Shown here: piece after piece, positions 2,734-18,797 of the stretch
How the letters are laid out: every line of letters starts with the position of its first letter
How positions within the stretch are numbered: position 1 is the first letter of the stretch
DNA from: a virus
UHGV virus genome: UHGV-1358007
Reading direction: 5' to 3' (one strand)
DNA length: 20,705 bases
Made by a program: the position numbers and the translations under genes
Notes under the pieces: model-generated
Databases searched by the model: none
The model's input: the letters and a program-made list of their open reading frames with translations, nothing else
Told to the model about the DNA's origin: nothing

Positions 2734-5700
2734 ATGGAACCCATATCAATTACAGTGGCAACTTATGTAGCAACTAAACTTATTGATCAATTCATCTCTC
2801 AAGAAGGATATGGTTGTATTAAGAAAGCATTATTCCCCCAAAAAAGATATGTGGATAGATTATATCAACTAATTGAAGAGACGGCAATTGAGTTTGAAGA
2901 AACATATCCAGTAGAAAGTGGAGCAATACCATTTTATCATTCCGAACCATTGTTTGAGATGTTGAATGAGCACATCTTTTTTAAAGAGTTCCCTGACAAA
3001 GAGATATTATTAGACAAGTTCAAAGAATATCCAAGTATCACTCCCCCAACTCAACAACAACTCAGCCTTTTTTATGAGATGTTATCATTAAAAATCAATA
3101 ATTGTTCGAAGTTAAAAAAGCTACATATCGAAGAAACGTATAAAGAAAAAATATTCGATATTAATGAAGAGCTCATTCAAGTCAAACTTATTTTACGGTC
3201 TATAGATGAGAAACTAACTTTTCACTTAAGTGATGATTGGTTAAATGAAAAAAATAGTCAAGCAATAGCTGACTTGGGAGGTCGATACACACCCGAACTC
3301 AACGTAAAGCTAGAAATAGCAGAGATATTTGATGGCCTCGGTAGAACTAATGATTTTTCTAAAATATTTTATTCGCATATAGATAGCTTTCTGGTCGCTG
3401 GAAAGAAATTACATAGTTGCGATGTAATTTCCTCAGAATTATTTGAAATAAACCAGTCCTTAAAAGAAATTTCTGATATATATCAGGAGATTAATTTTTC
3501 TAAATTAGATGAAATCCCTATAAATAAATTTAATAACTATGTTTCTAGCTGCCAGACAGCTATTGGCGGAGCGGTATCAATATTGTGGGAACTCCGAGAA
3601 AAGTCAGAGCAAGTAGGTGAAACCAAGCATTACAGTGATAAGTATTCATCTACTCTGCGAATGCTTCGGGAATTTGACTATGCGTGCAATGAATTACGTA
3701 TATTCATTAATTCAACAACAGTGAAGTTGGCTAACAACCCATTCTTACTTCTCGAAGGAAAAGCAGGAATTGGTAAGTCTCATTTACTGGCTGATGTGAT
3801 TAAAAATCGAATTGCTTCTGGGTATCCTTCACTACTCATACTAGGGCAACAACTTACTTCAGATGAATCTCCATGGTCACAAATCTTCAAGAGATTACAG
3901 CTTAAAATCACTTCTCGTGAATTCCTAGAAAAACTGAATTTATATGGCAAAAAAACAGGAAAAAGAGTCTTAGTTTTTATTGATGCTATTAATGAAGGTA
4001 ATGGAAATAAATTCTGGAATGACAATATTAACAGTTTTGTCGATGAAATCAGATGCTTTGAATGGCTTGGTCTGATAATGTCAGTCAGAACAACATATAG
4101 AAATGTAACAATTTCACATGAGAATGTTGTGCGAAATAATTTTGAAATTCATGAACATATTGGATTCCAGAACGTTGAGTTGGAAGCGGTTAGTCTATTT
4201 TATGATTATTACAATATTGAGAGGCCTTCATCTCCTAACCTTAATCCAGAGTTTAAAAATCCTCTATTTCTTAAGTTATTGTGTGAAGGCATTAAGAAAA
4301 ATGGTTTAACCAAAGTGCCTGTTGGATTTAATGGGATTTCAAATATTTTTAACTTTTTAGTTGAAGGGGTAAATAAATCATTAGCATCGCCAAAAAAATA
4401 TGCATTCGATCCCAGTTTTCCTCTTGTTAAAGATGCTCTCAATGAAATCATAAAATTCAAATTAGAGATTGGTCGTAATAGTATTTCACTTAAAGATGCT
4501 CACTCAGTGGTTCAATCTGTAGTTAATGATTATGTTGCTGATAAAACCTTCCTCAGCGCCTTGATTGACGAAGGATTATTGACTAAAGGCATAGTGAGAA
4601 ATGATGATAATTCTACTGAGGAAGTAGTTTATGTGGCTTTTGAAAGGTTTGATGATCATTTAACTGTTAATTTTTTATTAAATGATGTTGAAAATATCGA
4701 AAGTGAATTTAAGCCTGATGGTCGTCTGAAAAAATATTTTCATGATGAATGTGATTTTTATATAAAATCGGGAATAGTAGAGGCGTTGTCTATTCAATTG
4801 CCAGAAAGGTATGAAAAAGAGCTTTATGAATTTCTGCCGGAGTTCAGCAATAATCTTAAATTACTAGAAGCCTTTATTGATAGCTTGATATGGCGCGATA
4901 TTAAGGCTATTGATTTCGAAAAAATTAGACCTTTCATCAATGAACATGTTTTTAAATTTAAAGATAGTTTTGATCATTTCCTCGAGGCAGTGATCTCTAT
5001 TTCAGGTTTAGTTGGCCATCCCTTTAATGCTAATTTCTTGCATGATTGGCTAAAAGATTATTCTTTGGCAAATCGAGATTCGTTTTGGACTACAGAACTT
5101 AAATATAAATATAGTGAAGACTCAGCATTTAGGCATCTAATCGATTGGGCATGGGCCAGAACAGATAAAAGCTTTGTTTCGGATGAGTCAATCGAGCTAG
5201 TTGCAACTAGTTTATGCTGGTTTTTAACTTCTAGTAACCGAGAACTTCGAGATTGCTCAACTAAGGCTTTAGTGAGTTTACTCGAGCCAAGAATTCCTGT
5301 ATTGAGAAAAATAATTGATAAGTTTTATGGTGTAAATGATCCTTACGTTTGGGAAAGAATATTTGCAGTTGCATTAGGCTGTACATTGCGAACTGATAAT
5401 ATTAAAGAACTAAAATATTTAGCCGAAACTGTTTACCAAAAGGTATTTTGTTCTAAGTATGTGTATCCAAATATATTACTTAGAGATTATGCTAGAGAGA
5501 TTATTGAATTTGCTAATCATCTTGGATTGGAACTTGAAAGCATTGAATTATCCAAGACTAGACCACCCTACAACAGCATTTGGCCTGACAAGATTCCTTC
5601 AAAAGAGGAACTAGAGTCCCTTTATGATAAAGAACCTTATCGGGAACTCTGGAGCTCTATTATGGAAGATGGTGACTTTTCACGATATACTATTGGAACA

Positions 5701-7188
5701 AATTATAATCATTCTGATTGGTCTGGTTGCAAGTTTAATGAAACCCCTGTTGACCGTAAGCAAGTTTTTAAAACTTTCAAATGTAAACTAACTGATCAAC
5801 AAAAAGACTTGTATGATGCCACAGATCCTTTCATTTATGATGATAAATGCGAAGGAATTAAATTTGGTCGTGTGGTCGGTAGAAAAGCACAGGAAGAAAT
5901 AAAGGCGAGCAAGAAATTATTTAAGAATTCATTGTCATACGATCTGTTAAGTGAGTTTGAAAATGAAATAGAGCCATACCTGGATCATAATAATAATCTG
6001 CTGGAAACTGATAAACACTTTGATCTTCGACTAGCTCAACAATTTATATTCAATCGTGTTATAGAGCTTGGTTGGGATCCGGAGAAGCATGGTAATTTTG
6101 ACCAACAAATAGGAACTGGACGTGGACGTAGAGAGGCATTCCAAGAACGGATTGGTAAAAAATACCAATGGATTGCTTATTATGAATACATGGCAAGGCT
6201 AGCCGATAATTTTACTCGTTTTGAAGGTTATGGTGACGAACGAAAGGAAAATCCATACCAAGGGCCATGGGAGCCTTACGTAAGAGATATAGATCCCACT
6301 ATCTTACTTAAAGAAACTGGAACGAAAAAAATAAGCAATAAAGAAATGTGGTGGCTTAATGATGAAGTGTTTGATTGGACTTGCTCTAATGAAGACTGGG
6401 TTAAAAGTTCTACTACTATAACTAATTCATATGCTTTTATTGAAGTTAAAGATGATAATGGTGATGAATGGATAGTATTAGAAAGTCATCCATCATGGAA
6501 AGAACCAAAAATTATTGGAAACGATGATTGGGGGCACCCACGAAAAGAGGTTTGGTATCAGATCAGAAGTTATATCGTTAAAGTTGAAGAATTTGAAAAT
6601 TTTAGATGTTGGGCAATAGCTCAAGACTTTATGGGCAGGTGGATGCCGGAATGTACTGATAGATACCAATTATTTAATAGGGAGTACTATTGGTCCGAAG
6701 CATTTAAGTCTTTTAAATCAGATTATTATGGTGGATCTGACTGGACTTCGGTAACAGACCGGGAGTCTGGAGCTAAGATAGCTGATGTTAGTGTCACTTC
6801 GATTAATTATTTGTGGGAAGAGGAGTTCGACAAATCAAAAATAGAAACTTTGAATTTTTTGAAGCCTAGTAACTTAATCTTTGAAAAGATGGGATTAAAA
6901 AGTGGGGAAGTAGAGGGTAGCTTCAATGATGAAAATGGAACTATGGTTTGCTTTGCAGCTGAAGCTGTATATGCTTCAAAGCCGCATCTACTTGTTAAAA
7001 AAGAACCATTTTTAACAATGTTAAGGGACAATGGTTTTGAAATCGTTTGGACATTATTAGGTGAAAAGGGCGTTATAGGGGGCTCACTCATATCAAGTCA
7101 TCATTATGGTCGACAGGAGTTTAGTGGAGCATTTTATTATGAAGACAGTCAGCTAACAGGAAGTCATAAAACTAGCTTTACGAGATAA
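2734..7188 (+). CDS. Large NACHT/STAND-like P-loop NTPase (1484 aa); candidate single-gene anti-phage defense protein with unassigned N- and C-terminal domains
   Basis: Uninterrupted 4455-nt ORF with RBS ggaagaag upstream of ATG; Walker A GKAGIGKS (nt 3757-3780); Walker B-like VLVFIDAINE; MSVRTT and HIGFQNVELEAVSLFYDYY resembling NACHT sensor and GF motifs; AT-rich versus flanks. Confidence 0.8.
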   Translation: MEPISITVATYVATKLIDQFISQEGYGCIKKALFPQKRYVDRLYQLIEETAIEFEETYPVESGAIPFYHSEPLFEMLNEHIFFKEFPDKEILLDKFKEYPSITPPTQQQLSLFYEMLSLKINNCSKLKKLHIEETYKEKIFDINEELIQVKLILRSIDEKLTFHLSDDWLNEKNSQAIADLGGRYTPELNVKLEIAEIFDGLGRTNDFSKIFYSHIDSFLVAGKKLHSCDVISSELFEINQSLKEISDIYQEINFSKLDEIPINKFNNYVSSCQTAIGGAVSILWELREKSEQVGETKHYSDKYSSTLRMLREFDYACNELRIFINSTTVKLANNPFLLLEGKAGIGKSHLLADVIKNRIASGYPSLLILGQQLTSDESPWSQIFKRLQLKITSREFLEKLNLYGKKTGKRVLVFIDAINEGNGNKFWNDNINSFVDEIRCFEWLGLIMSVRTTYRNVTISHENVVRNNFEIHEHIGFQNVELEAVSLFYDYYNIERPSSPNLNPEFKNPLFLKLLCEGIKKNGLTKVPVGFNGISNIFNFLVEGVNKSLASPKKYAFDPSFPLVKDALNEIIKFKLEIGRNSISLKDAHSVVQSVVNDYVADKTFLSALIDEGLLTKGIVRNDDNSTEEVVYVAFERFDDHLTVNFLLNDVENIESEFKPDGRLKKYFHDECDFYIKSGIVEALSIQLPERYEKELYEFLPEFSNNLKLLEAFIDSLIWRDIKAIDFEKIRPFINEHVFKFKDSFDHFLEAVISISGLVGHPFNANFLHDWLKDYSLANRDSFWTTELKYKYSEDSAFRHLIDWAWARTDKSFVSDESIELVATSLCWFLTSSNRELRDCSTKALVSLLEPRIPVLRKIIDKFYGVNDPYVWERIFAVALGCTLRTDNIKELKYLAETVYQKVFCSKYVYPNILLRDYAREIIEFANHLGLELESIELSKTRPPYNSIWPDKIPSKEELESLYDKEPYRELWSSIMEDGDFSRYTIGTNYNHSDWSGCKFNETPVDRKQVFKTFKCKLTDQQKDLYDATDPFIYDDKCEGIKFGRVVGRKAQEEIKASKKLFKNSLSYDLLSEFENEIEPYLDHNNNLLETDKHFDLRLAQQFIFNRVIELGWDPEKHGNFDQQIGTGRGRREAFQERIGKKYQWIAYYEYMARLADNFTRFEGYGDERKENPYQGPWEPYVRDIDPTILLKETGTKKISNKEMWWLNDEVFDWTCSNEDWVKSSTTITNSYAFIEVKDDNGDEWIVLESHPSWKEPKIIGNDDWGHPRKEVWYQIRSYIVKVEEFENFRCWAIAQDFMGRWMPECTDRYQLFNREYYWSEAFKSFKSDYYGGSDWTSVTDRESGAKIADVSVTSINYLWEEEFDKSKIETLNFLKPSNLIFEKMGLKSGEVEGSFNDENGTMVCFAAEAVYASKPHLLVKKEPFLTMLRDNGFEIVWTLLGEKGVIGGSLISSHHYGRQEFSGAFYYEDSQLTGSHKTSFTR

Positions 7189-10299: not shown

Positions 10300-10690
10300 A
10301 CATTTCCATAAATGCCCCCGCAGGGGCGGTTAGTTTCTCCACAAAACAGAGAAGAACACCTGCGGTAGCAGCCGCCCGGATGGATTGGGTTATAAGCCCG
10401 TCGTCCGGTGATGCTCTTCTCTGTTTTGTAAAAAGGGCGATACCAGCCGGAAGCAAGGGTACAAACTGGTACCGCCAAGACTACACACAGCATAAAGTTG
10501 TGGTGCCGGGTGCCTCCCGGTGCCTGGCGAAGGTTGCACACCAGGCGGGTGGGTATCCACAGAAGGTCGACTGTCAGCCTCAACCTTAACCCGCGTGCGC
10601 TGAGCCGCATTCACCACAACGCTAAGGATTCTCTCTGGTTGAAAATACTTAGCTGTTATGTGCCTGCTTTTAGCCACATCAGGCGAGGTG
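10300..10690. other. GC-rich, hairpin-rich, apparently non-coding block (candidate structured RNA or gene remnant)
   Basis: 15-bp perfect inverted repeat acaaaacagagaaga/tcttctctgttttgt (about 10342-10430) around a GC-rich 59-nt loop; further short stems (ccggg/cccgg, cctgg/ccagg); only overlapping ORFs on both strands without RBS. Confidence 0.3.
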
Positions 10691-10696
10691 GACCTA

Positions 10697-10745
10697 GTTA
10701 TTCCCCAACAACAAGGATTCGGTTAATCTGGTTATCCCCAACAAC
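10697..10745 (+). repeat. Two direct repeats GTTAT(T)CCCCAACAAC about 33 bp apart, just upstream of the 10761 gene
   Basis: Seen directly; the repeat contains TTATCCCCA, one mismatch from a DnaA-box consensus TTATCCACA. Confidence 0.55.
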
Positions 10746-10760
10746 GCAAAAGGAAAAGAA

Positions 10761-11195
10761 ATGTCCGGTAATATCTATACGCTGTACAAATCCCACTGTG
10801 AAAATGTTGGAAAGTATCGGGGCATTGAAATCAGTGGGGTAGTGTCATCAGTCGAAATAAGCAAAGTTGAATCAAGGGCAACATTACTTACTCTTTTGGA
10901 CCTTGTCTTACATGAGCACCGGAAGAAATTCGGCACTCCCTATAATCAGTTGAATGGGAAAAAGGCTCTGGTTCACCTTATTCTGATGAAGCATCACTGG
11001 ATGCCAAAACAGATTAATGAGATGAAATTTGATGAACTTCTTCTTTCAATTCAGGATGAACTCACACTTGATAAAATAAGCGTAACCGCCCAGAAATTTT
11101 TAGATTATCGAGACTGGAGATCACAAATTCATCACTTTGATGATTTTGACGAAAATGAATGGGATCCTAATTTGTCTGCACAATATCTAAAGTAA
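10761..11195 (+). CDS. Hypothetical AT-rich protein (144 aa), convergent with the early-left operon; possible moron
   Basis: ORF with aaaggaaaag purine-rich stretch before ATG; followed on the same strand by an intrinsic terminator; no family recognised. Confidence 0.55.
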   Translation: MSGNIYTLYKSHCENVGKYRGIEISGVVSSVEISKVESRATLLTLLDLVLHEHRKKFGTPYNQLNGKKALVHLILMKHHWMPKQINEMKFDELLLSIQDELTLDKISVTAQKFLDYRDWRSQIHHFDDFDENEWDPNLSAQYLK

Positions 11196-11373
11196 CATCC
11201 TGTGATAAAACCGTGATTTCCTGATCCAGTTTTTTTAAGGAGTCTATTGTTTCCTGTCGATAAGACAGCACTTCACGAAGCTGGTTTATAGCTGCCAGCT
11301 TCTTTGTCATCCACTCATAAATTTCCTCATCTGTGTAGCCAGGCGCGACGATTTTGGGTTCTGTTTTGTGCAT
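11167..11373 (-). CDS. Small early-left protein (68 aa from internal ATG; first gene left of the immunity region)
   Basis: gaggag RBS 7 nt upstream of ATG (MHKTEPK...); the ORF track's TTG start 5 codons upstream is less likely. Confidence 0.5.
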   Translation of the reverse strand: MHKTEPKIVAPGYTDEEIYEWMTKKLAAINQLREVLSYRQETIDSLKKLDQEITVLSQDVTLDIVQTN

Positions 11374-11432
11374 TTCACATCTCCTCAAGTTATCAGTTAC
11401 TTGTTGATGGGGACCAGATTGTTAAAGAGCTA

Positions 11433-11456
11433 AGCGTCCTGTAGGGCGCTTTTTTG
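11433..11456 (+). terminator. Rho-independent terminator (stem agcgtcc/gggcgct, loop tgta, then tttttt)
   Basis: Hairpin plus T-tract seen directly; oriented to stop rightward transcription from the 10761 gene before the immunity region. Confidence 0.5.
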
Positions 11457-11620
11457 TTGCTAACGAATCATCCTGGACTTCATATGCCCCAGGCGGCTAC
11501 TTCGTGGGCGTCCTGCCTGTTCGTTATCTTTGATATAAAATCTAACTTAACTTAGTTATTATGGCAAGAGAAAACACCAAACTTTTCTTAGTTCGGTGCC
11601 TTAGTTAGAGAAGAGAGGTC

Positions 11621-12022
11621 TTAGAGTTCGTATTGAACTCCTTTGACTACACCAATGATAAGGCAATTACCATTGATAGGGATGTTGGGATACCGAGGAT
11701 TTAATGGCACTAAAAACTTTTGAGGGCCATCGATGACTAATTTTTTTACTGTAGCTTCGTTTGTTCCATCAAGTCGAGCGATGACTATTTTTCCATGACG
11801 AGGTTCTGCATCTGGATCTACAATCACTGTTGCGCCTTCTGGTATTGTTGGGAGGCCATTAGGGTTAGTCATGGAGTCACCTTTAACCTCTAATGCAAAT
11901 GAGTTATCACCAATCTTTAATGATGTATCTACCCACTTGTCCACTTCACTAAACACTTCTGCTGCCCTGCACTCAGTAAACTGCCCAGCCTGAACCCACG
12001 ATATTACAGGAACTCTGCGCAT
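11621..12022 (-). CDS. cI-type repressor C-terminal S24 peptidase domain only (133 aa); N-terminal HTH domain absent
   Basis: VQAGQF (Ala-Gly cleavage site), GDSM (catalytic Ser) and VKKL (Lys) conserved; aligns to lambda cI residues about 100-236; only 28 in-frame codons upstream before a stop, none a start codon; no SD. Confidence 0.75.
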   Translation of the reverse strand: MRRVPVISWVQAGQFTECRAAEVFSEVDKWVDTSLKIGDNSFALEVKGDSMTNPNGLPTIPEGATVIVDPDAEPRHGKIVIARLDGTNEATVKKLVIDGPQKFLVPLNPRYPNIPINGNCLIIGVVKGVQYEL

Positions 12023-12072: not shown

Positions 12073-12101
12073 TTGACGTATTGAAGAACTTCGCTAATAA
12101 T
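12073..12101 (+). promoter_or_regulatory. Candidate pR promoter (-35 ttgacg, 17-bp spacer, -10 aataat) for cro
   Basis: Motifs read directly about 25 nt upstream of cro RBS ggaggg. Confidence 0.4.
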
Positions 12102-17217: not shown

Positions 17218-17234
17218 TTTTGTGGAGAAAGTTG

Positions 17235-17597
17235 ATGCGTGATATTCAAATGGTTCTGGATCGTTGGGGAGCATGGGCGGCGAGTGATAGTTCAGGAGTT
17301 GACTATTCTCCTATAGCTGCTGGGTTTAAAGGGCTTCTTCCCTATACAAGCAAAACACGTCAGGCTTGTTCAGATAGTGATGCATTAATTCTTGAAGGTT
17401 GTCTTGCTCGTCTAAAGCAAAAAAGGCCGGACGAACATTCGCTTCTTGTTGCCCATTACCTATTCGGTATCTCTAAAAGAAAGCTCGCCAAGGCTCGTAA
17501 AAAGGATGAGAAATTAATACGCATTGAGATACAGATGGCTGAGGGATTTATCGATGGTTGCCTTAGTATGCTCGATATACGTTTAGAATGTGAATAG
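17235..17597 (+). CDS. Q: Late antiterminator Q (short phage-82/DLP12 QuuD-type, about 120 aa)
   Basis: MRDIQMVLDRWGAWAA... resembles QuuD as I remember it; RBS ggagaaag before ATG at 17235; lies upstream of the lysis cassette. Confidence 0.8.
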   Translation: MRDIQMVLDRWGAWAASDSSGVDYSPIAAGFKGLLPYTSKTRQACSDSDALILEGCLARLKQKRPDEHSLLVAHYLFGISKRKLAKARKKDEKLIRIEIQMAEGFIDGCLSMLDIRLECE

Positions 17598-17801: not shown

Positions 17802-18797
17802 TTATCCATGTCGAGCCCACCCCTCTGAGATAAGGTTATGATTTATGCCGAACTGACCTGGGACGCCTGGAACTTGCAAACGCTGTAACATCCCCTCAGT
17901 GCGGAATTGATATGAAAACGTGTCTGGAGCCTCTAAAATGCTTCTGACAGATACGTACGATGCCTGGTTAACTGTTCCTAAGATAGCATTTGGGTCAAAA
18001 GGTTCACCCAGATGCATCTCAGTTTTGAAATCTTCATAAATTTCTTTGATCAGACCGTAAAGGTGCTCATCTGGTTTTTCCACCGTAAGACCTAAATCGT
18101 TTACCGCTTCAATCCTATTTATAGTGTAGTCATGGCTACCAGAATCACTACAAAGGAAACTTACAATTTTCTCAATGCTTTCACTATCAGTGAGTTGGTG
18201 AGACAGTAGTTTTCTTGCGAGCATTTGAATCTGCGCTTTAGCTCGATAGACTTTTCCAAGTACCAAGGGATGAACCTTTTCACTTAATGCAAGGAGGATC
18301 TGTGCAAGTGAGGCATCATCTTTGATACTCAAATCATGCTTAACTACTTCAAGATAGCCATTGATTTCTTCAACACTGACTGGAAGTTGAAGTGGCTGCC
18401 CATTGATTATGACCGAAGGGTTAAGTGGTGTATTCACACTTGGATCGATTGGCCCTAAGGTTGCCTGCTTGGTCATAACCAAGTTGTTCGCGCCAAGGCA
18501 CATTATCGTCCCAGAACTATGGCATTTTGATGGGATTATGATTTCGAGTTCTTTACAAAACTGACGAAGCAGGTTTACAAGGCTCCATGCTGTTAAAGTG
18601 TCGCCGCCTCGCGTATAGAGCACGAGGCTAATTTTTTGAACATCACCTATCACATCAAGATGATTGACGAACAGATCGAATACATCAGCGCTGATTTGAG
18701 CTTCTTGGTTTGGTCTATCACCTGTTACATAGCATAATACTTTTGAATTGCGTGCTTGTTCCAGTTGCGCATACAGGGCTTTACGCTGCTCAAACAT
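17802..18797 (-). CDS. Clp-fold serine protease of the SDH/S49 (SppA-like) family, 331 aa; moron encoded antisense to late transcription
   Basis: Motifs LVLYTRGGDTLTAWSL, KCHSSGTIMCLGAN and ATLGPIDPS resemble ClpP/SppA/SDH peptidase signatures; lower GC than phage genes; opposite strand between Q and holin. Confidence 0.75.
   Translation of the reverse strand: MFEQRKALYAQLEQARNSKVLCYVTGDRPNQEAQISADVFDLFVNHLDVIGDVQKISLVLYTRGGDTLTAWSLVNLLRQFCKELEIIIPSKCHSSGTIMCLGANNLVMTKQATLGPIDPSVNTPLNPSVIINGQPLQLPVSVEEINGYLEVVKHDLSIKDDASLAQILLALSEKVHPLVLGKVYRAKAQIQMLARKLLSHQLTDSESIEKIVSFLCSDSGSHDYTINRIEAVNDLGLTVEKPDEHLYGLIKEIYEDFKTEMHLGEPFDPNAILGTVNQASYVSVRSILEAPDTFSYQFRTEGMLQRLQVPGVPGQFGINHNLISEGWARHG

What the first reader, a model, noticed from the sequence alone, without database searches (positions are those of the whole stretch)
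10697..11456. Convergent AT-rich gene with upstream direct repeats and its own terminator
A 144-aa ORF (10761-11195) is transcribed against the early-left operon. It is preceded by two direct repeats GTTAT(T)CCCCAACAAC (10697-10745, DnaA-box-like TTATCCCCA) and followed by a rho-independent terminator (11433-11456). Its 3' end overlaps the first early-left gene convergently. An autonomous transcription unit embedded in an operon of opposite polarity is typical of lysogen-expressed morons such as superinfection exclusion or abortive infection genes; I recognise no family for the protein.
Basis: partly seen in the sequence, partly recalled or inferred. Interest (0 to 1): 0.45.

Follow-up and report, generated by a model that had tools for sequence, protein, structure and literature searches.

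The report
Convergent two-gene cargo cassette in prophage
The flagged gene is real, but it is one half of a conserved pair of head-on, overlapping genes of unknown function that sits in a swappable cargo slot of SfIV-like prophages, and its layout suggests (unproven) a lysogen-expressed protein that the phage's own lytic transcription switches off.

Summary

The interpretation needs three corrections.

1. The ORF belongs to a catalogued but uncharacterised family (NCBIfam NF033230 "ECs1072 family", phrog_5286). A confident all-helical model (pLDDT 93) has no relative in PDB or BFVD, and there is no Pfam or PADLOC match.

2. The overlapped "first early-left gene" is a dedicated partner. The big gene and a small convergent gene travel together in at least four kinds of slot: next to pL, in the pR operon (O157 Sakai Sp4), between Q and the holin (ST64B, Klebsiella, Serratia, Citrobacter), and after cox. 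The big gene always runs against the lytic operon and the partner always runs with it.

3. The direct repeats are not DnaA boxes and are not specific to this gene. They lie in a ~90-nt leader shared by at least four unrelated cargo types. A third, inverted copy brackets the cargo, followed by a one-way terminator and a boxA.

Function is untested. My best guess (about 0.35-0.4) is a Tha/Ith-like switch: the big protein is on in lysogeny, and lytic transcription silences it and supplies the partner. No promoter could be identified in this window.

The parts
10659..10745 (+). Conserved cargo-slot leader, TGTGCCTG..CCACATCAGGC..GGTGG..(repeat 1)..AAGGATTCGGTTAAT..(repeat 2). It ends exactly where cargo-specific sequence begins.
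   Evidence: Nearly invariant across cargo types A-D in a 12-sequence alignment. Homology between the window and PhiR29/R49 stops at 10745. 36 sequence variants were seen in the loci held.
10693..10712 (+). Direct repeat unit 1 (CCTAGTTATTCCCCAACAAC; family consensus CCTGGTTATTCCCCAACAAC), followed by an SD-like AAGGA.
10725..10745 (+). Direct repeat unit 2, which is also the left arm of the cargo-bracketing inverted repeat (AATCTGGTTATCCCCAACAAC).
Evidence: It matches 8 of 9 positions, the mismatch falls in CACA, and the family consensus is ATATCCCCA.
10761..11195 (+). Big gene: 144-aa ECs1072-family protein (WP_000016389.1). Soluble, pI 6.4, all-alpha.
   Evidence: NF033230 157.8 bits against a cutoff of 70; phrog_5286 E=1.5e-90. 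AF2 pLDDT 93.2, pTM 0.86. 76 family representatives. Present in 422 of 5426 complete E. coli genomes.
11167..11373 (-). Partner gene: 68-aa acidic protein (WP_000549623.1, phrog_1744). N-terminal motif MxKxEPxI[IV]APGx[ST][DE]EE[IV]YxWM, then a coiled-coil-like tail. RBS GAGGAG at 11386-11381. Overlaps the big gene's 3' end by 29 nt.
   Evidence: Homologous partners are convergent on big-gene homologues in L098, L090, L009, L092, L131, L180, ST64B and L224.
11400..11420 (-). Right arm of the inverted repeat (minus strand AATCTGGTCCCCATCAACAAG), the third copy of the repeat unit.
   Evidence: 20 nt, 75% complementary. Present in all 13 cassette representatives that had the right-end sequence, and the arms co-vary in type D.
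11419..11430 (-). boxA-like GCTCTTTAACAA in the leftward (pL) leader.
   Evidence: Read. Conserved at the right end of all cargo types. The match to the rrn/lambdoid boxA consensus rests on my own knowledge. No convincing boxB hairpin was found.
11432..11456 (+). One-way intrinsic terminator of the rightward cargo transcript (AAGCGUCC-UGUA-GGGCGCUU + U6). It lies beyond the partner's start codon, so the big-gene mRNA is antisense to the whole partner gene.
   Evidence: Conserved with every cargo type. The conserved U.G wobble becomes a C.A mismatch on the minus strand, which also lacks a U-tract.
11539..11567 (-). Candidate pL (TTGCCA-17-TAGATT) among ACTAAG-type repeats, downstream of cI.
   Evidence: 9 of 12 positions; sequence context. 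The assignment is inferred, not shown.
10427..10650 (-). Left neighbour: an STnc100/PasD-like sRNA candidate with its own 3' hairpin and U-run, divergent from the big gene. It accounts for much of the conserved GC-rich non-coding left flank (10316-10691).
   Evidence: Rfam RF02076 42.7 bits (gathering score 47), E=2e-7, full model length. Family background in bioRxiv 10.64898/2026.05.13.724894.

Best explanation
Shown. The 144-aa gene and the 68-aa leftward gene form one mobile two-gene cassette. It sits in a cargo slot of SfIV/SfV-like lambdoid prophages, between pL/boxA and an STnc100-like sRNA. The slot, not the cargo, supplies a ~90-nt leader containing the two 'direct repeats', a third inverted copy of that repeat at the far end, and a rightward-only terminator. 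In other temperate enterobacterial phages the same pair lies in the pR operon, between Q and the holin, or after cox. The orientation rule is constant: the big gene runs against the lytic operon, and the small partner runs with it, placed just downstream of the operon's promoter or regulator. Inferred mechanism. In a lysogen the lytic promoter is silent, so the big gene is transcribed from its own promoter up to the one-way terminator. Its mRNA is then antisense to the whole partner gene, giving big protein ON and partner OFF. When the lytic operon fires, head-on transcription and antisense pairing shut down the big gene and the partner protein is made, most likely as a direct inhibitor of the big protein. 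The most likely role of the big protein is a lysogen-expressed anti-phage (exclusion or abortive-infection type) effector. The partner would be the prophage's own off switch, avoiding self-harm on induction. This is a mirror image of the Tha/Ith arrangement of S. aureus phage 80alpha. The biochemical activity is unknown. In this particular window cI has lost its DNA-binding domain, so pL may be constitutively on and the big gene chronically opposed.
For: The gene is real: NF033230 and phrog_5286 full-length matches; 76 family representatives; a confident fold. The slot and its shared signals: homology breakpoints at 10745 and 11414 against PhiR29; four cargo types behind one leader and in front of one right end in 112 loci. 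The pair is conserved. Partners in window, L098, L090, L009 and L092 are homologous (E from 3e-16 to 5e-4). All three divergent big-gene variants in this slot keep a partner. The reciprocal test also holds: a distant partner (P0155) converges on a 148-aa gene that matches the family profile at 99.9% probability, E=1.9e-33. The pair is present in the isolated phages SfIV, ST64B (sb50 is the partner) and Klebsiella KPP5665-2. The orientation rule held in all 17 phage contexts examined: pL side; pR operon in Sakai Sp4 and L094/95; Q-holin; after cox. Own promoter elsewhere: a TG-extended -10 or a perfect TATAAT lies 20-45 nt upstream of the big gene in most other contexts. The terminator lies beyond the partner's start. 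The big gene occurs alone in a non-prophage chromosomal context, where no off switch would be needed. Precedent: Tha/Ith, where an antisense pair and RNA polymerase collisions couple defence to the phage life cycle (PMC11087260). Weak expression hint: ECs1072 gives a regulated microarray signal in Sakai cultures.
Against: There is no functional evidence of any kind: no PADLOC, Pfam, PDB or BFVD relative for either protein, and no paper names them. No promoter is recognisable upstream of the big gene in the window-type leader. Partners in L095, L096, L097 and L103 are not demonstrably homologous to the core group, and L101 (a phage context) lacks one. In the pL slot no terminator was found between cI and pL, so read-through from pRM could also express the partner in lysogens. 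None of the alternative cargos in the slot is a known defence gene, so there is no guilt by association.
Confidence: 0.38

Rival explanations
1. Reversed roles. The small partner is the active lytic-cycle protein, for example a host-takeover or toxic early protein made first from pL, pR, pR' or Pe. The big gene is the lysogen's safeguard: its mRNA, which is antisense to the entire partner gene including the RBS, and perhaps its protein neutralise leaky partner expression. This resembles a type I or type II toxin-antitoxin module.
For: The partner's N-terminal 25 residues are more conserved than the big protein (window against L098: about 70% against 25%), as expected if the partner contacts a conserved host target. 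The partner is always promoter-proximal in a lytic operon. The big-gene transcript covers the partner's RBS before terminating.
Against: The big gene also exists without any partner in a chromosomal, non-phage context and in L101, which is odd for an antidote. A 145-aa well-folded conserved protein is more than antisense silencing would require. No toxin-like features are evident in the 68-aa acidic, non-hydrophobic partner.
Confidence: 0.2
2. A purely regulatory antisense unit. Convergent transcription from the cargo promoter dampens leaky lytic transcription, as OOP or paQ do in lambda, and so stabilises lysogeny. The protein products are secondary, or are regulators of the lysis-lysogeny decision.
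For: In Sakai Sp4 the big gene occupies the position of lambda's oop, between cII and O and antisense (the position of oop rests on my own knowledge). All slots lie at the start of operons whose leakage is dangerous: replication, lysis and the early-left genes.
Against: Unrelated cargo genes use the same slot, so any antisense effect belongs to the slot. It does not explain why this protein pair is conserved across four different slots down to 25-35% identity with a constrained fold.
Confidence: 0.15
3. One reading: a single-gene moron with DnaA-controlled (or phage-regulator-controlled) direct-repeat operators, encoding a superinfection-exclusion or abortive-infection protein, which merely abuts the first early-left gene.
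For: The features listed are real. One repeat matches the DnaA box at 8 of 9 positions, and four one-mismatch boxes cluster at 10335-10740.
Against: One-mismatch DnaA boxes are common (14 in the window, 5.4 expected by chance). The mismatch is in the conserved CACA. The family consensus has two mismatches. The repeats are shared by unrelated cargos. The overlapped gene is co-inherited with the big gene in other operons.
Confidence: 0.08
4. Ordinary accessory baggage: a selfish or neutral cassette that spreads by recombination at the conserved slot flanks and has no measurable phenotype for phage or host.
For: No function could be assigned. The cassette is absent from close relatives that are viable phages, such as SfV and PhiR29.
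Against: The family persists down to 25% identity with near-invariant residues (L50, R54, L64, G66, A69, H72, W134), and gene order and orientation are maintained across four slot types. That implies selection on both proteins and on their arrangement.
Confidence: 0.12

Closest known systems
Tha/Ith 'noncontiguous operon' of Staphylococcus aureus phage 80alpha (PMC11087260)
   Same: A prophage gene pair on opposite strands with overlapping transcription. Reciprocal expression through RNA polymerase collisions couples a defence protein (on in lysogeny) to a small inhibitor (on in the lytic cycle), avoiding autoimmunity.
   Different: No sequence or fold similarity: Tha is a HEPN RNase and no such domain is present here. 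The geometry is mirrored. There the defence gene sits in the cI operon and the small inhibitor is the antisense gene. Here the large gene is the antisense one and the small gene rides the lytic operon. Function here is untested.
Lambdoid 'morons' and lysogen-expressed exclusion genes (lambda bor, lom, rexAB; P22 sieB; 933W stk) - from my own knowledge
   Same: Compositionally foreign unit with its own terminator, inserted between backbone genes near the immunity region, and present or absent among close relatives.
   Different: The regulatory signals (leader, inverted repeat, terminator) belong to the slot and are shared by unrelated cargos. The cargo is a convergent overlapping pair, not a single gene. 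No promoter is recognisable in this copy.
P2/P4 hotspots of antiviral systems (PMC9122126)
   Same: A fixed position in a temperate-phage backbone with conserved flanks and highly variable cargo.
   Different: A different phage group and position. None of the four cargo types found here matches a known defence family.
BstA-aba self-immunity (PMC8585504)
   Same: A prophage defence locus next to the repressor that carries its own element for sparing the cognate phage (abstract).
   Different: BstA is a large protein with its own characteristic domain (from my own knowledge), and its antidote is a DNA element. Here the candidate antidote is a protein plus convergent transcription. There is no homology.
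Lambda OOP antisense RNA - from my own knowledge
   Same: An antisense transcription unit between cII and O. ECs1072 in Sakai Sp4 occupies this position and orientation.
   Different: OOP is a 77-nt non-coding RNA. Here the antisense unit encodes a conserved ~145-aa protein and faces a dedicated partner ORF.

Membership tests
NCBIfam NF033230 'ECs1072 family phage-associated protein' / PHROG 5286 | Full-length HMM match above the curated cutoff | tested here: met
   157.8 bits against a cutoff of 70, residues 4-144 on profile positions 2-142 of 142. phrog_5286 E=1.5e-90, 1-144 of 144. Both families are of unknown function.
Moron (autonomous inserted transcription unit) | Present or absent between otherwise collinear related phages, with sharp homology breakpoints | tested here: met
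   Breakpoints at 10745/11414 against PhiR29 and R49, and 10691/11462 against SfV. Four cargo types in 112 loci.
Moron (autonomous inserted transcription unit) | Base composition different from the flanks | tested here: met
   GC 0.379 against 0.554.
Moron (autonomous inserted transcription unit) | Own terminator | tested here: met
   Stem 11432-11451 plus T6. It is conserved and strand-asymmetric. It is a property of the slot rather than of the cargo.
Moron (autonomous inserted transcription unit) | Own promoter | tested here: inconclusive
   No sigma-70 consensus on the plus strand upstream of the ORF. The TG-extended -10 of the short-leader form is degenerate here (GGTGGA-CCTAG). Homologues elsewhere do have TGnTATCCT, TATAGT or TATAAT.
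Moron (autonomous inserted transcription unit) | Expression from the repressed prophage | not testable with these tools
   The only evidence is a microarray signal for ECs1072 in Sakai (-2.13-fold at a growth transition), and strand specificity is unknown.
Known anti-phage defence systems (PADLOC-DB 2.0) | HMM match of either protein to a defence-system component | tested here: not met
   No hit for the big gene or the partner, nor for a second big/partner variant. The one sub-significant PtuA hit (E=0.009, 13 bits) to a coiled-coil segment is disregarded.
Tha/Ith-type antisense immunity switch | Antisense gene with its own transcription unit nested in an operon of opposite polarity, with overlapping transcripts | tested here: met
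   Geometry in the window and in 16 other phage contexts.
Tha/Ith-type antisense immunity switch | Homology to Tha (HEPN) or Ith | tested here: not met
Tha/Ith-type antisense immunity switch | The small protein inhibits the large one; reciprocal expression in lysogenic and lytic states | not testable with these tools
   Needs RNA-seq, genetics or interaction assays.
DnaA box (TTATCCACA / TTWTNCACA) | Match to the 9-mer consensus, above chance, conserved among relatives | tested here: not met
   Only repeat 2 matches, at 8 of 9 positions, and the mismatch is in CACA. There are 14 one-mismatch hits in the window against 5.4 +/- 2.4 expected. The family consensus ATATCCCCA has 2 mismatches.
Lambdoid nutL site | boxA consensus downstream of pL | tested here: met
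   GCTCTTTAACAA on the minus strand at 11430-11419, conserved in all cargo types. The consensus itself comes from my own knowledge.
Lambdoid nutL site | boxB hairpin after boxA, and an N-like ARM protein | tested here: not met
   No conserved hairpin follows boxA. The first pL gene, the partner, is acidic (pI 4.8) and has no arginine-rich motif.
Rfam RF02076 STnc100 (left neighbour) | Score at or above the gathering threshold | tested here: inconclusive
   42.7 bits against 47. E=2e-7, full-length match with the terminal hairpin.

The most novel reading that the evidence does not exclude
The ECs1072-type protein and its small convergent partner are a previously unrecognised two-component prophage immunity module. 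It would have a new protein fold and a hard-wired life-cycle switch: the effector is antisense to a lytic operon, and the inhibitor is the first gene of that operon. The module is portable between pL, pR, late and P2-type early operons of temperate Enterobacterales phages. The slot it occupies here would be a general 'plug-and-play' expression socket (leader, cargo-bracketing inverted repeat, one-way terminator) for several other unknown lysogen-expressed functions.
Probability: 0.3. Interest if true: 0.72.

Novelty: new variant of a known kind. Interest (0 to 1): 0.52.

Why it matters
If the inferred switch is real, it would be a Gram-negative counterpart of Tha/Ith with unrelated proteins. 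It would show that antisense nesting inside lytic operons is a general way for prophages to carry weapons without harming themselves. The module is common: about 8% of complete E. coli genomes carry it, and it is present in SfIV, ST64B and Klebsiella prophages, where the big gene is often not even annotated. Its fold has no characterised relative, so it is a well-defined and cheap target for phage-challenge experiments. Separately, the shared leader, inverted repeat and one-way terminator define a searchable cargo socket. That socket already yields three further unknown cargo families. It also shows that the 'direct repeats' should not be read as operators of this gene.

Tried and rejected
- **DnaA boxes:** rejected on statistics and on the family consensus.
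- **Remote homology:** Pfam on the protein and on 44 family members, a PDB sequence profile, PADLOC, and NCBIfam beyond the self-family all found nothing.
- **Literature:** 'ECs1072' appears only in one microarray table. Accession numbers returned no papers. 'sb50' hits were strain names, a false lead.
- **Guilt by association:** the other cargos in the slot have no known families.
- **Promoter hunt in the window:** no sigma-70 consensus was found. By eye I also saw nothing resembling a sigma-54 or sigma-E promoter.
- **nutL boxB:** not found.
- **Leader RNA structure or pseudoknot (GCCTG/CAGGC, CCAC/GTGG):** only one lineage shows compensatory changes, which is too little to claim structure.
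- **The search for related loci with broad alignments:** failed for lack of conserved blocks.
- **SfIV_35 and the long PhiR29 ORF spanning the leader:** judged to be annotation artefacts, because they run through the conserved non-coding leader in a frame unrelated to the cargo.
Full report
**Context**

The window is an SfIV/SfV-like lambdoid prophage of E. coli. The 901 bp around the finding are 100% identical to many E. coli chromosomes and 98.3% identical to Shigella phage SfIV. The gene order on the plus strand is:
- tail-fibre genes;
- a 1484-aa Avs2 gene;
- int and xis, then the leftward early genes (yfdT, yfdR-like);
- the region of the finding;
- cI, cro, the replication genes and Q;
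- a reverse-strand protease;
- the lysis genes.

**1.

The ORF at 10761-11195 encodes 144 aa and has an AAGGA Shine-Dalgarno sequence. The repeats GTTATTCCCCAACAAC (10697-10712) and GTTATCCCCAACAAC (10731-10745) are present. Their exact 11-mer core occurs nowhere else in the window. The terminator (stem 11432-11451 plus T6) is the best rightward terminator-like site in the region, followed by a weaker one at 11277-11302. The 29-nt convergent overlap with a leftward 68-aa gene (11167-11373) is also in RefSeq's annotation. GC content is 0.379 in the ORF and 0.554 in the left flank.

**2. The protein**

The protein is a full-length member of NCBIfam NF033230 ("ECs1072 family phage-associated protein", a hypothetical equivalog) and of phrog_5286. 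Both are of unknown function.

- A word-indexed search found only 14 clusters at 90% identity.
- An exhaustive profile search found 76 representatives at 50% identity, almost all single-domain proteins of 143-157 aa.
- The near-invariant residues are L50, R54, L64, G66, A69, H72 and W134.
- AlphaFold2 with a 44-sequence alignment gives a confident all-alpha model (pLDDT 93.2, pTM 0.86).
- The protein is soluble (pI 6.4, no hydrophobic segment).

Its biochemical activity therefore cannot be inferred.

**3. The overlapped gene is a partner, not just "the first early-left gene"**

The same arrangement recurs in unrelated contexts: a ~145-aa gene with a small gene converging on it and overlapping its 3' end.

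| Locus | Identity to the window's big protein | 3' overlap | Position |
|---|---|---|---|
| Serratia L009 | 35% | 74 nt | between Q and holin |
| L090 | 38% | 95 nt | next to a different cI |
| L098 | 25% | 80 nt | near cI |
| L092/93 | - | 113 nt (L092; the L093 copy is frameshifted) | between Q and holin |
| L097 | - | 101 nt | - |
| L103/104 (P2-like) | - | about 100 nt | after cox |
| O157 Sakai Sp4 | - | - | ECs1072, now ECs_5703, antisense between the cII-like gene and O |

- In Sakai Sp4 a partner-like ORF starts right after the cII-like gene.
- In phages ST64B and Klebsiella KPP5665-2 the annotated sb50 and GP45 are the partners, and the big gene was never annotated.
- The partners of window, L098, L090, L009 and L092 are demonstrably homologous (E from 3e-16 to 5e-4). 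They share M-x-K-x-EP-x-I-[IV]-APG-x-[ST]-[DE]-EE-[IV]-Y-x-W-M followed by a coiled-coil-like tail.
- The partner family has 90 clusters, all "hypothetical", all in Enterobacterales.
- The reciprocal test holds. A distant partner (Citrobacter P0155) converges on a 148-aa gene that matches the big-family profile at 99.9% probability, E=1.9e-33.
- Exceptions: no partner in a chromosomal, non-phage context (L099/100) or in L101; partners of unproven homology in L095, L096, L097 and L103.

In all 17 phage contexts the big gene is antisense to the surrounding lytic operon, and the partner is co-directional with it and promoter-proximal.

**4. The repeats and the terminator belong to the slot**

Homology between the window and PhiR29/R49 stops at 10745, the last base of repeat 2. 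It resumes at 11414. Against SfV it stops at 10691 and resumes at 11462.

I searched viral contigs for the leader segment AAGGATTCGKTTAATCTGG. This returned 120 motif instances, of which 112 were usable. Behind the same leader and in front of the same right end I found:
- **Type A:** three divergent ECs1072-type pairs, each with its partner.
- **Type B:** about 40 instances of a 150-171-aa coiled-coil protein with a CxxC...CxxC motif.
- **Type C:** about 7 instances of a 25-28-aa ORF followed by a ~150-aa membrane protein.
- **Type D:** one secreted LprI-like protein.

None of these matches Pfam or PADLOC.

The leader core (10659-10745 in the window) is nearly invariant across cargo types. The repeat unit is really CTGG[TA]TAT(T)CCCCAACAAC, present twice with a 14-nt spacer, AAGGATTCGGTTAAT. 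A third, inverted copy sits at the far end (11400-11420). As a result, every one of the 13 cassette representatives that had the right-end sequence is bracketed by a 17-22-bp inverted repeat. In type D both arms carry the same variant.

Immediately outside the right arm lie a boxA-like GCTCTTTAACAA on the leftward strand and the terminator. The terminator's conserved U.G wobble becomes a C.A mismatch on the leftward strand, which also lacks a U-tract. It should therefore stop rightward cargo transcripts while letting pL transcripts pass. SfV, L096, the second slot of L098 and Serratia L009 carry a shorter leader with a TG-extended -10 (TGGTATCCT and similar). RefSeq annotates the 81-aa rightward cargo behind it.

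**5. DnaA boxes**

One-mismatch matches to TTATCCACA number 14 in the window, against 5.4 +/- 2.4 expected. Only repeat 2 qualifies. Its mismatch is in the conserved CACA, and the family consensus (ATATCCCCA) has two mismatches. I reject this reading, although four one-mismatch boxes do cluster at 10335-10740.

**6. The promoter**

No sigma-70 consensus lies upstream of the ORF in the window. The TG-extended -10 seen in short leaders, and upstream of most big-gene homologues elsewhere, is degenerate here: GGTGGA-CCTAG. Examples elsewhere are TGGTATCCT in L009, TGATATCCT in L092, TGATATAGT in L097, TGATATTGT in ST64B and L224, and TATAAT in Sakai. In many relatives a strong hairpin isolates the leader from upstream sequence, so the promoter should lie within the ~110-nt leader. 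It remains unidentified.

**7. The leftward side**

A candidate pL (TTGCCA-17-TAGATT, 11567-11539) lies downstream of cI, among ACTAAG repeats. The leftward transcript would read, in order:
1. a conserved leader;
2. boxA;
3. the right arm of the inverted repeat;
4. the partner gene;
5. the antisense of the big gene;
6. the repeats;
7. an STnc100/PasD-like sRNA candidate (10650 to 10427; 42.7 bits against a gathering score of 47) with its own terminator.

**8. Mechanism**

Shown:
- a two-gene convergent cassette;
- slot-borne signals;
- the orientation rule;
- a rightward terminator placed beyond the partner's start, so the big-gene mRNA is antisense to the whole partner gene.

Inferred: reciprocal expression. 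In lysogeny the lytic promoter is off, the big gene is on and the partner is silenced. In lytic growth, head-on transcription silences the big gene and the partner is produced, probably as an inhibitor.

This is the logic demonstrated for Tha/Ith in S. aureus phage 80alpha. There an antisense pair and RNA polymerase collisions keep a defence protein on in lysogeny and let a small inhibitor switch it off on induction (PMC11087260). The partner-less big gene in a non-prophage chromosome fits an effector that needs an off switch only when carried by a phage.

I put about 0.85 on the anatomy and about 0.35-0.4 on the functional reading. The rivals are:
- reversed roles, with the partner as the toxic or host-directed early protein and the big gene as the lysogenic antidote;
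- a purely regulatory OOP-like antisense unit;
- neutral baggage.

**9. Peculiarities of this copy**

The window's prophage has a clean 221-bp deletion at 12098 that removes the cI HTH domain (about codons 1-50), pRM and most of oR. It also has a ~1.3-kb deletion of yfdQ/yfdP at 10316-10327. Without repressor supplied in trans, pL may be constitutively active here and would oppose the big gene.

**10. Novelty**

The protein family is catalogued but uncharacterised. I found no paper describing either protein, the pair or the slot. The kind of thing is known: a moron or cargo hotspot, possibly a prophage defence with self-immunity. The new elements are:
- the conserved convergent overlapping pair with its orientation rule across four operon types;
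- the unrelated fold;
- the cargo socket with a shared leader, a bracketing inverted repeat and a one-way terminator.

I rate this a new variant of a known kind, of moderate interest and readily testable.

Noticed in passing
window 2734-7188 (+): The AT-rich (GC about 0.33) 1484-aa ORF is an Avs2 (AVAST type 2) anti-phage STAND NTPase: NCBIfam NF041813 1689 bits, PADLOC Avs2. It sits beside int, where SfIV carries its gtr serotype-conversion genes.
   Followed up: partly
window 12098 (junction); cI remnant 11621-12022 (-): A clean 221-bp deletion relative to intact relatives removes the cI HTH domain (about codons 1-50), pRM and most of oR. It leaves a 133-aa ORF containing only the S24 domain. 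This prophage cannot make a functional repressor.
   Followed up: yes
window 10316-10327: A ~1.3-kb deletion of yfdQ (DUF2303) and yfdP relative to SfV, SfIV, Kati and PhiR29, with a 12-bp overlap at the junction. RefSeq calls the remnant a frameshifted pseudogene.
   Followed up: partly
window 10427-10650 (-): An STnc100/PasD-like prophage sRNA candidate (Rfam RF02076, 42.7 bits against a gathering score of 47, E=2e-7, full model length) with a terminal hairpin and U-run. A weak DicF-like match lies at 10435-10489. The candidate is divergent from the 144-aa gene and accounts for much of the conserved GC-rich 'non-coding' flank.
   Followed up: partly
window 11419-11456: A near-consensus boxA (GCTCTTTAACAA, minus strand) sits directly beside a strand-asymmetric hairpin that terminates only rightward transcripts. 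No boxB and no N-like protein were found, which raises the question of how, or whether, the early-left operon is antiterminated.
   Followed up: partly
L107, L119, L123, L164, L175, L181, L125; L003 2631-2876; L098 3782-4195: Other cargo families use the same socket: a 150-171-aa coiled-coil plus zinc-ribbon-like protein (about 40 loci); a 25-28-aa ORF (..DYEERHMPPFKRPEPP..) followed by a ~150-aa membrane protein (about 7); and an LprI-like secreted protein (1). SfV also has an unannotated 81-aa rightward ORF convergent on orf33. All are of unknown function.
   Followed up: partly
L229 2845-3279 (ST64B); L230 about 2345-2791 (Klebsiella KPP5665-2): The ECs1072-type big gene is unannotated in the published genomes of Salmonella phage ST64B and Klebsiella phage KPP5665-2. 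Only the small partner (sb50, GP45) is annotated.
   Followed up: yes
window 10659-10692 and homologous leaders: The leader contains two interleaved short complementary pairs, GCCTG/CAGGC and CCAC/GTGG, in a pseudoknot-like or palindromic arrangement. Of 36 sequence variants, one lineage (L098) has compensatory changes in both (GCCTT/AAGGC, CCGC/GCGG), and four have single mismatches. This is too little to call a structure or an operator.
   Followed up: partly
window 10709-10716 and 10750-10754; L090 2-169: The leader contains ACAAGGAU, the core of the CsrA-binding consensus as I recall it. A second GGA lies in the SD about 33 nt downstream. In L090 the module lies next to a phage-encoded CsrA homologue (PF02599). 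No test was possible.
   Followed up: no
window 11148-11162 and homologues: The family-invariant Trp of the 'EWDP' motif is encoded within a GGATCC-centred palindrome. Where the partner extends across it (L009, ST64B, L224), the palindrome is a perfect TGGGATCCCA and both proteins read W-D-P from opposite strands. The partner-less loci L099 and L101 lack the palindrome.
   Followed up: yes
window 17802-18797 (-): Another reverse-strand cargo gene lies between Q (17220-17597) and the holin: a 331-aa protein with a ClpP-like SDH-type serine protease domain (PF01972, 54 bits). A relative genome carries a KAP-family NTPase at the same spot.
   Followed up: partly
L098 and L096: Some prophages carry two tandem copies of the leader, each in front of its own rightward cargo gene. 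The socket can therefore be duplicated in series.
   Followed up: no
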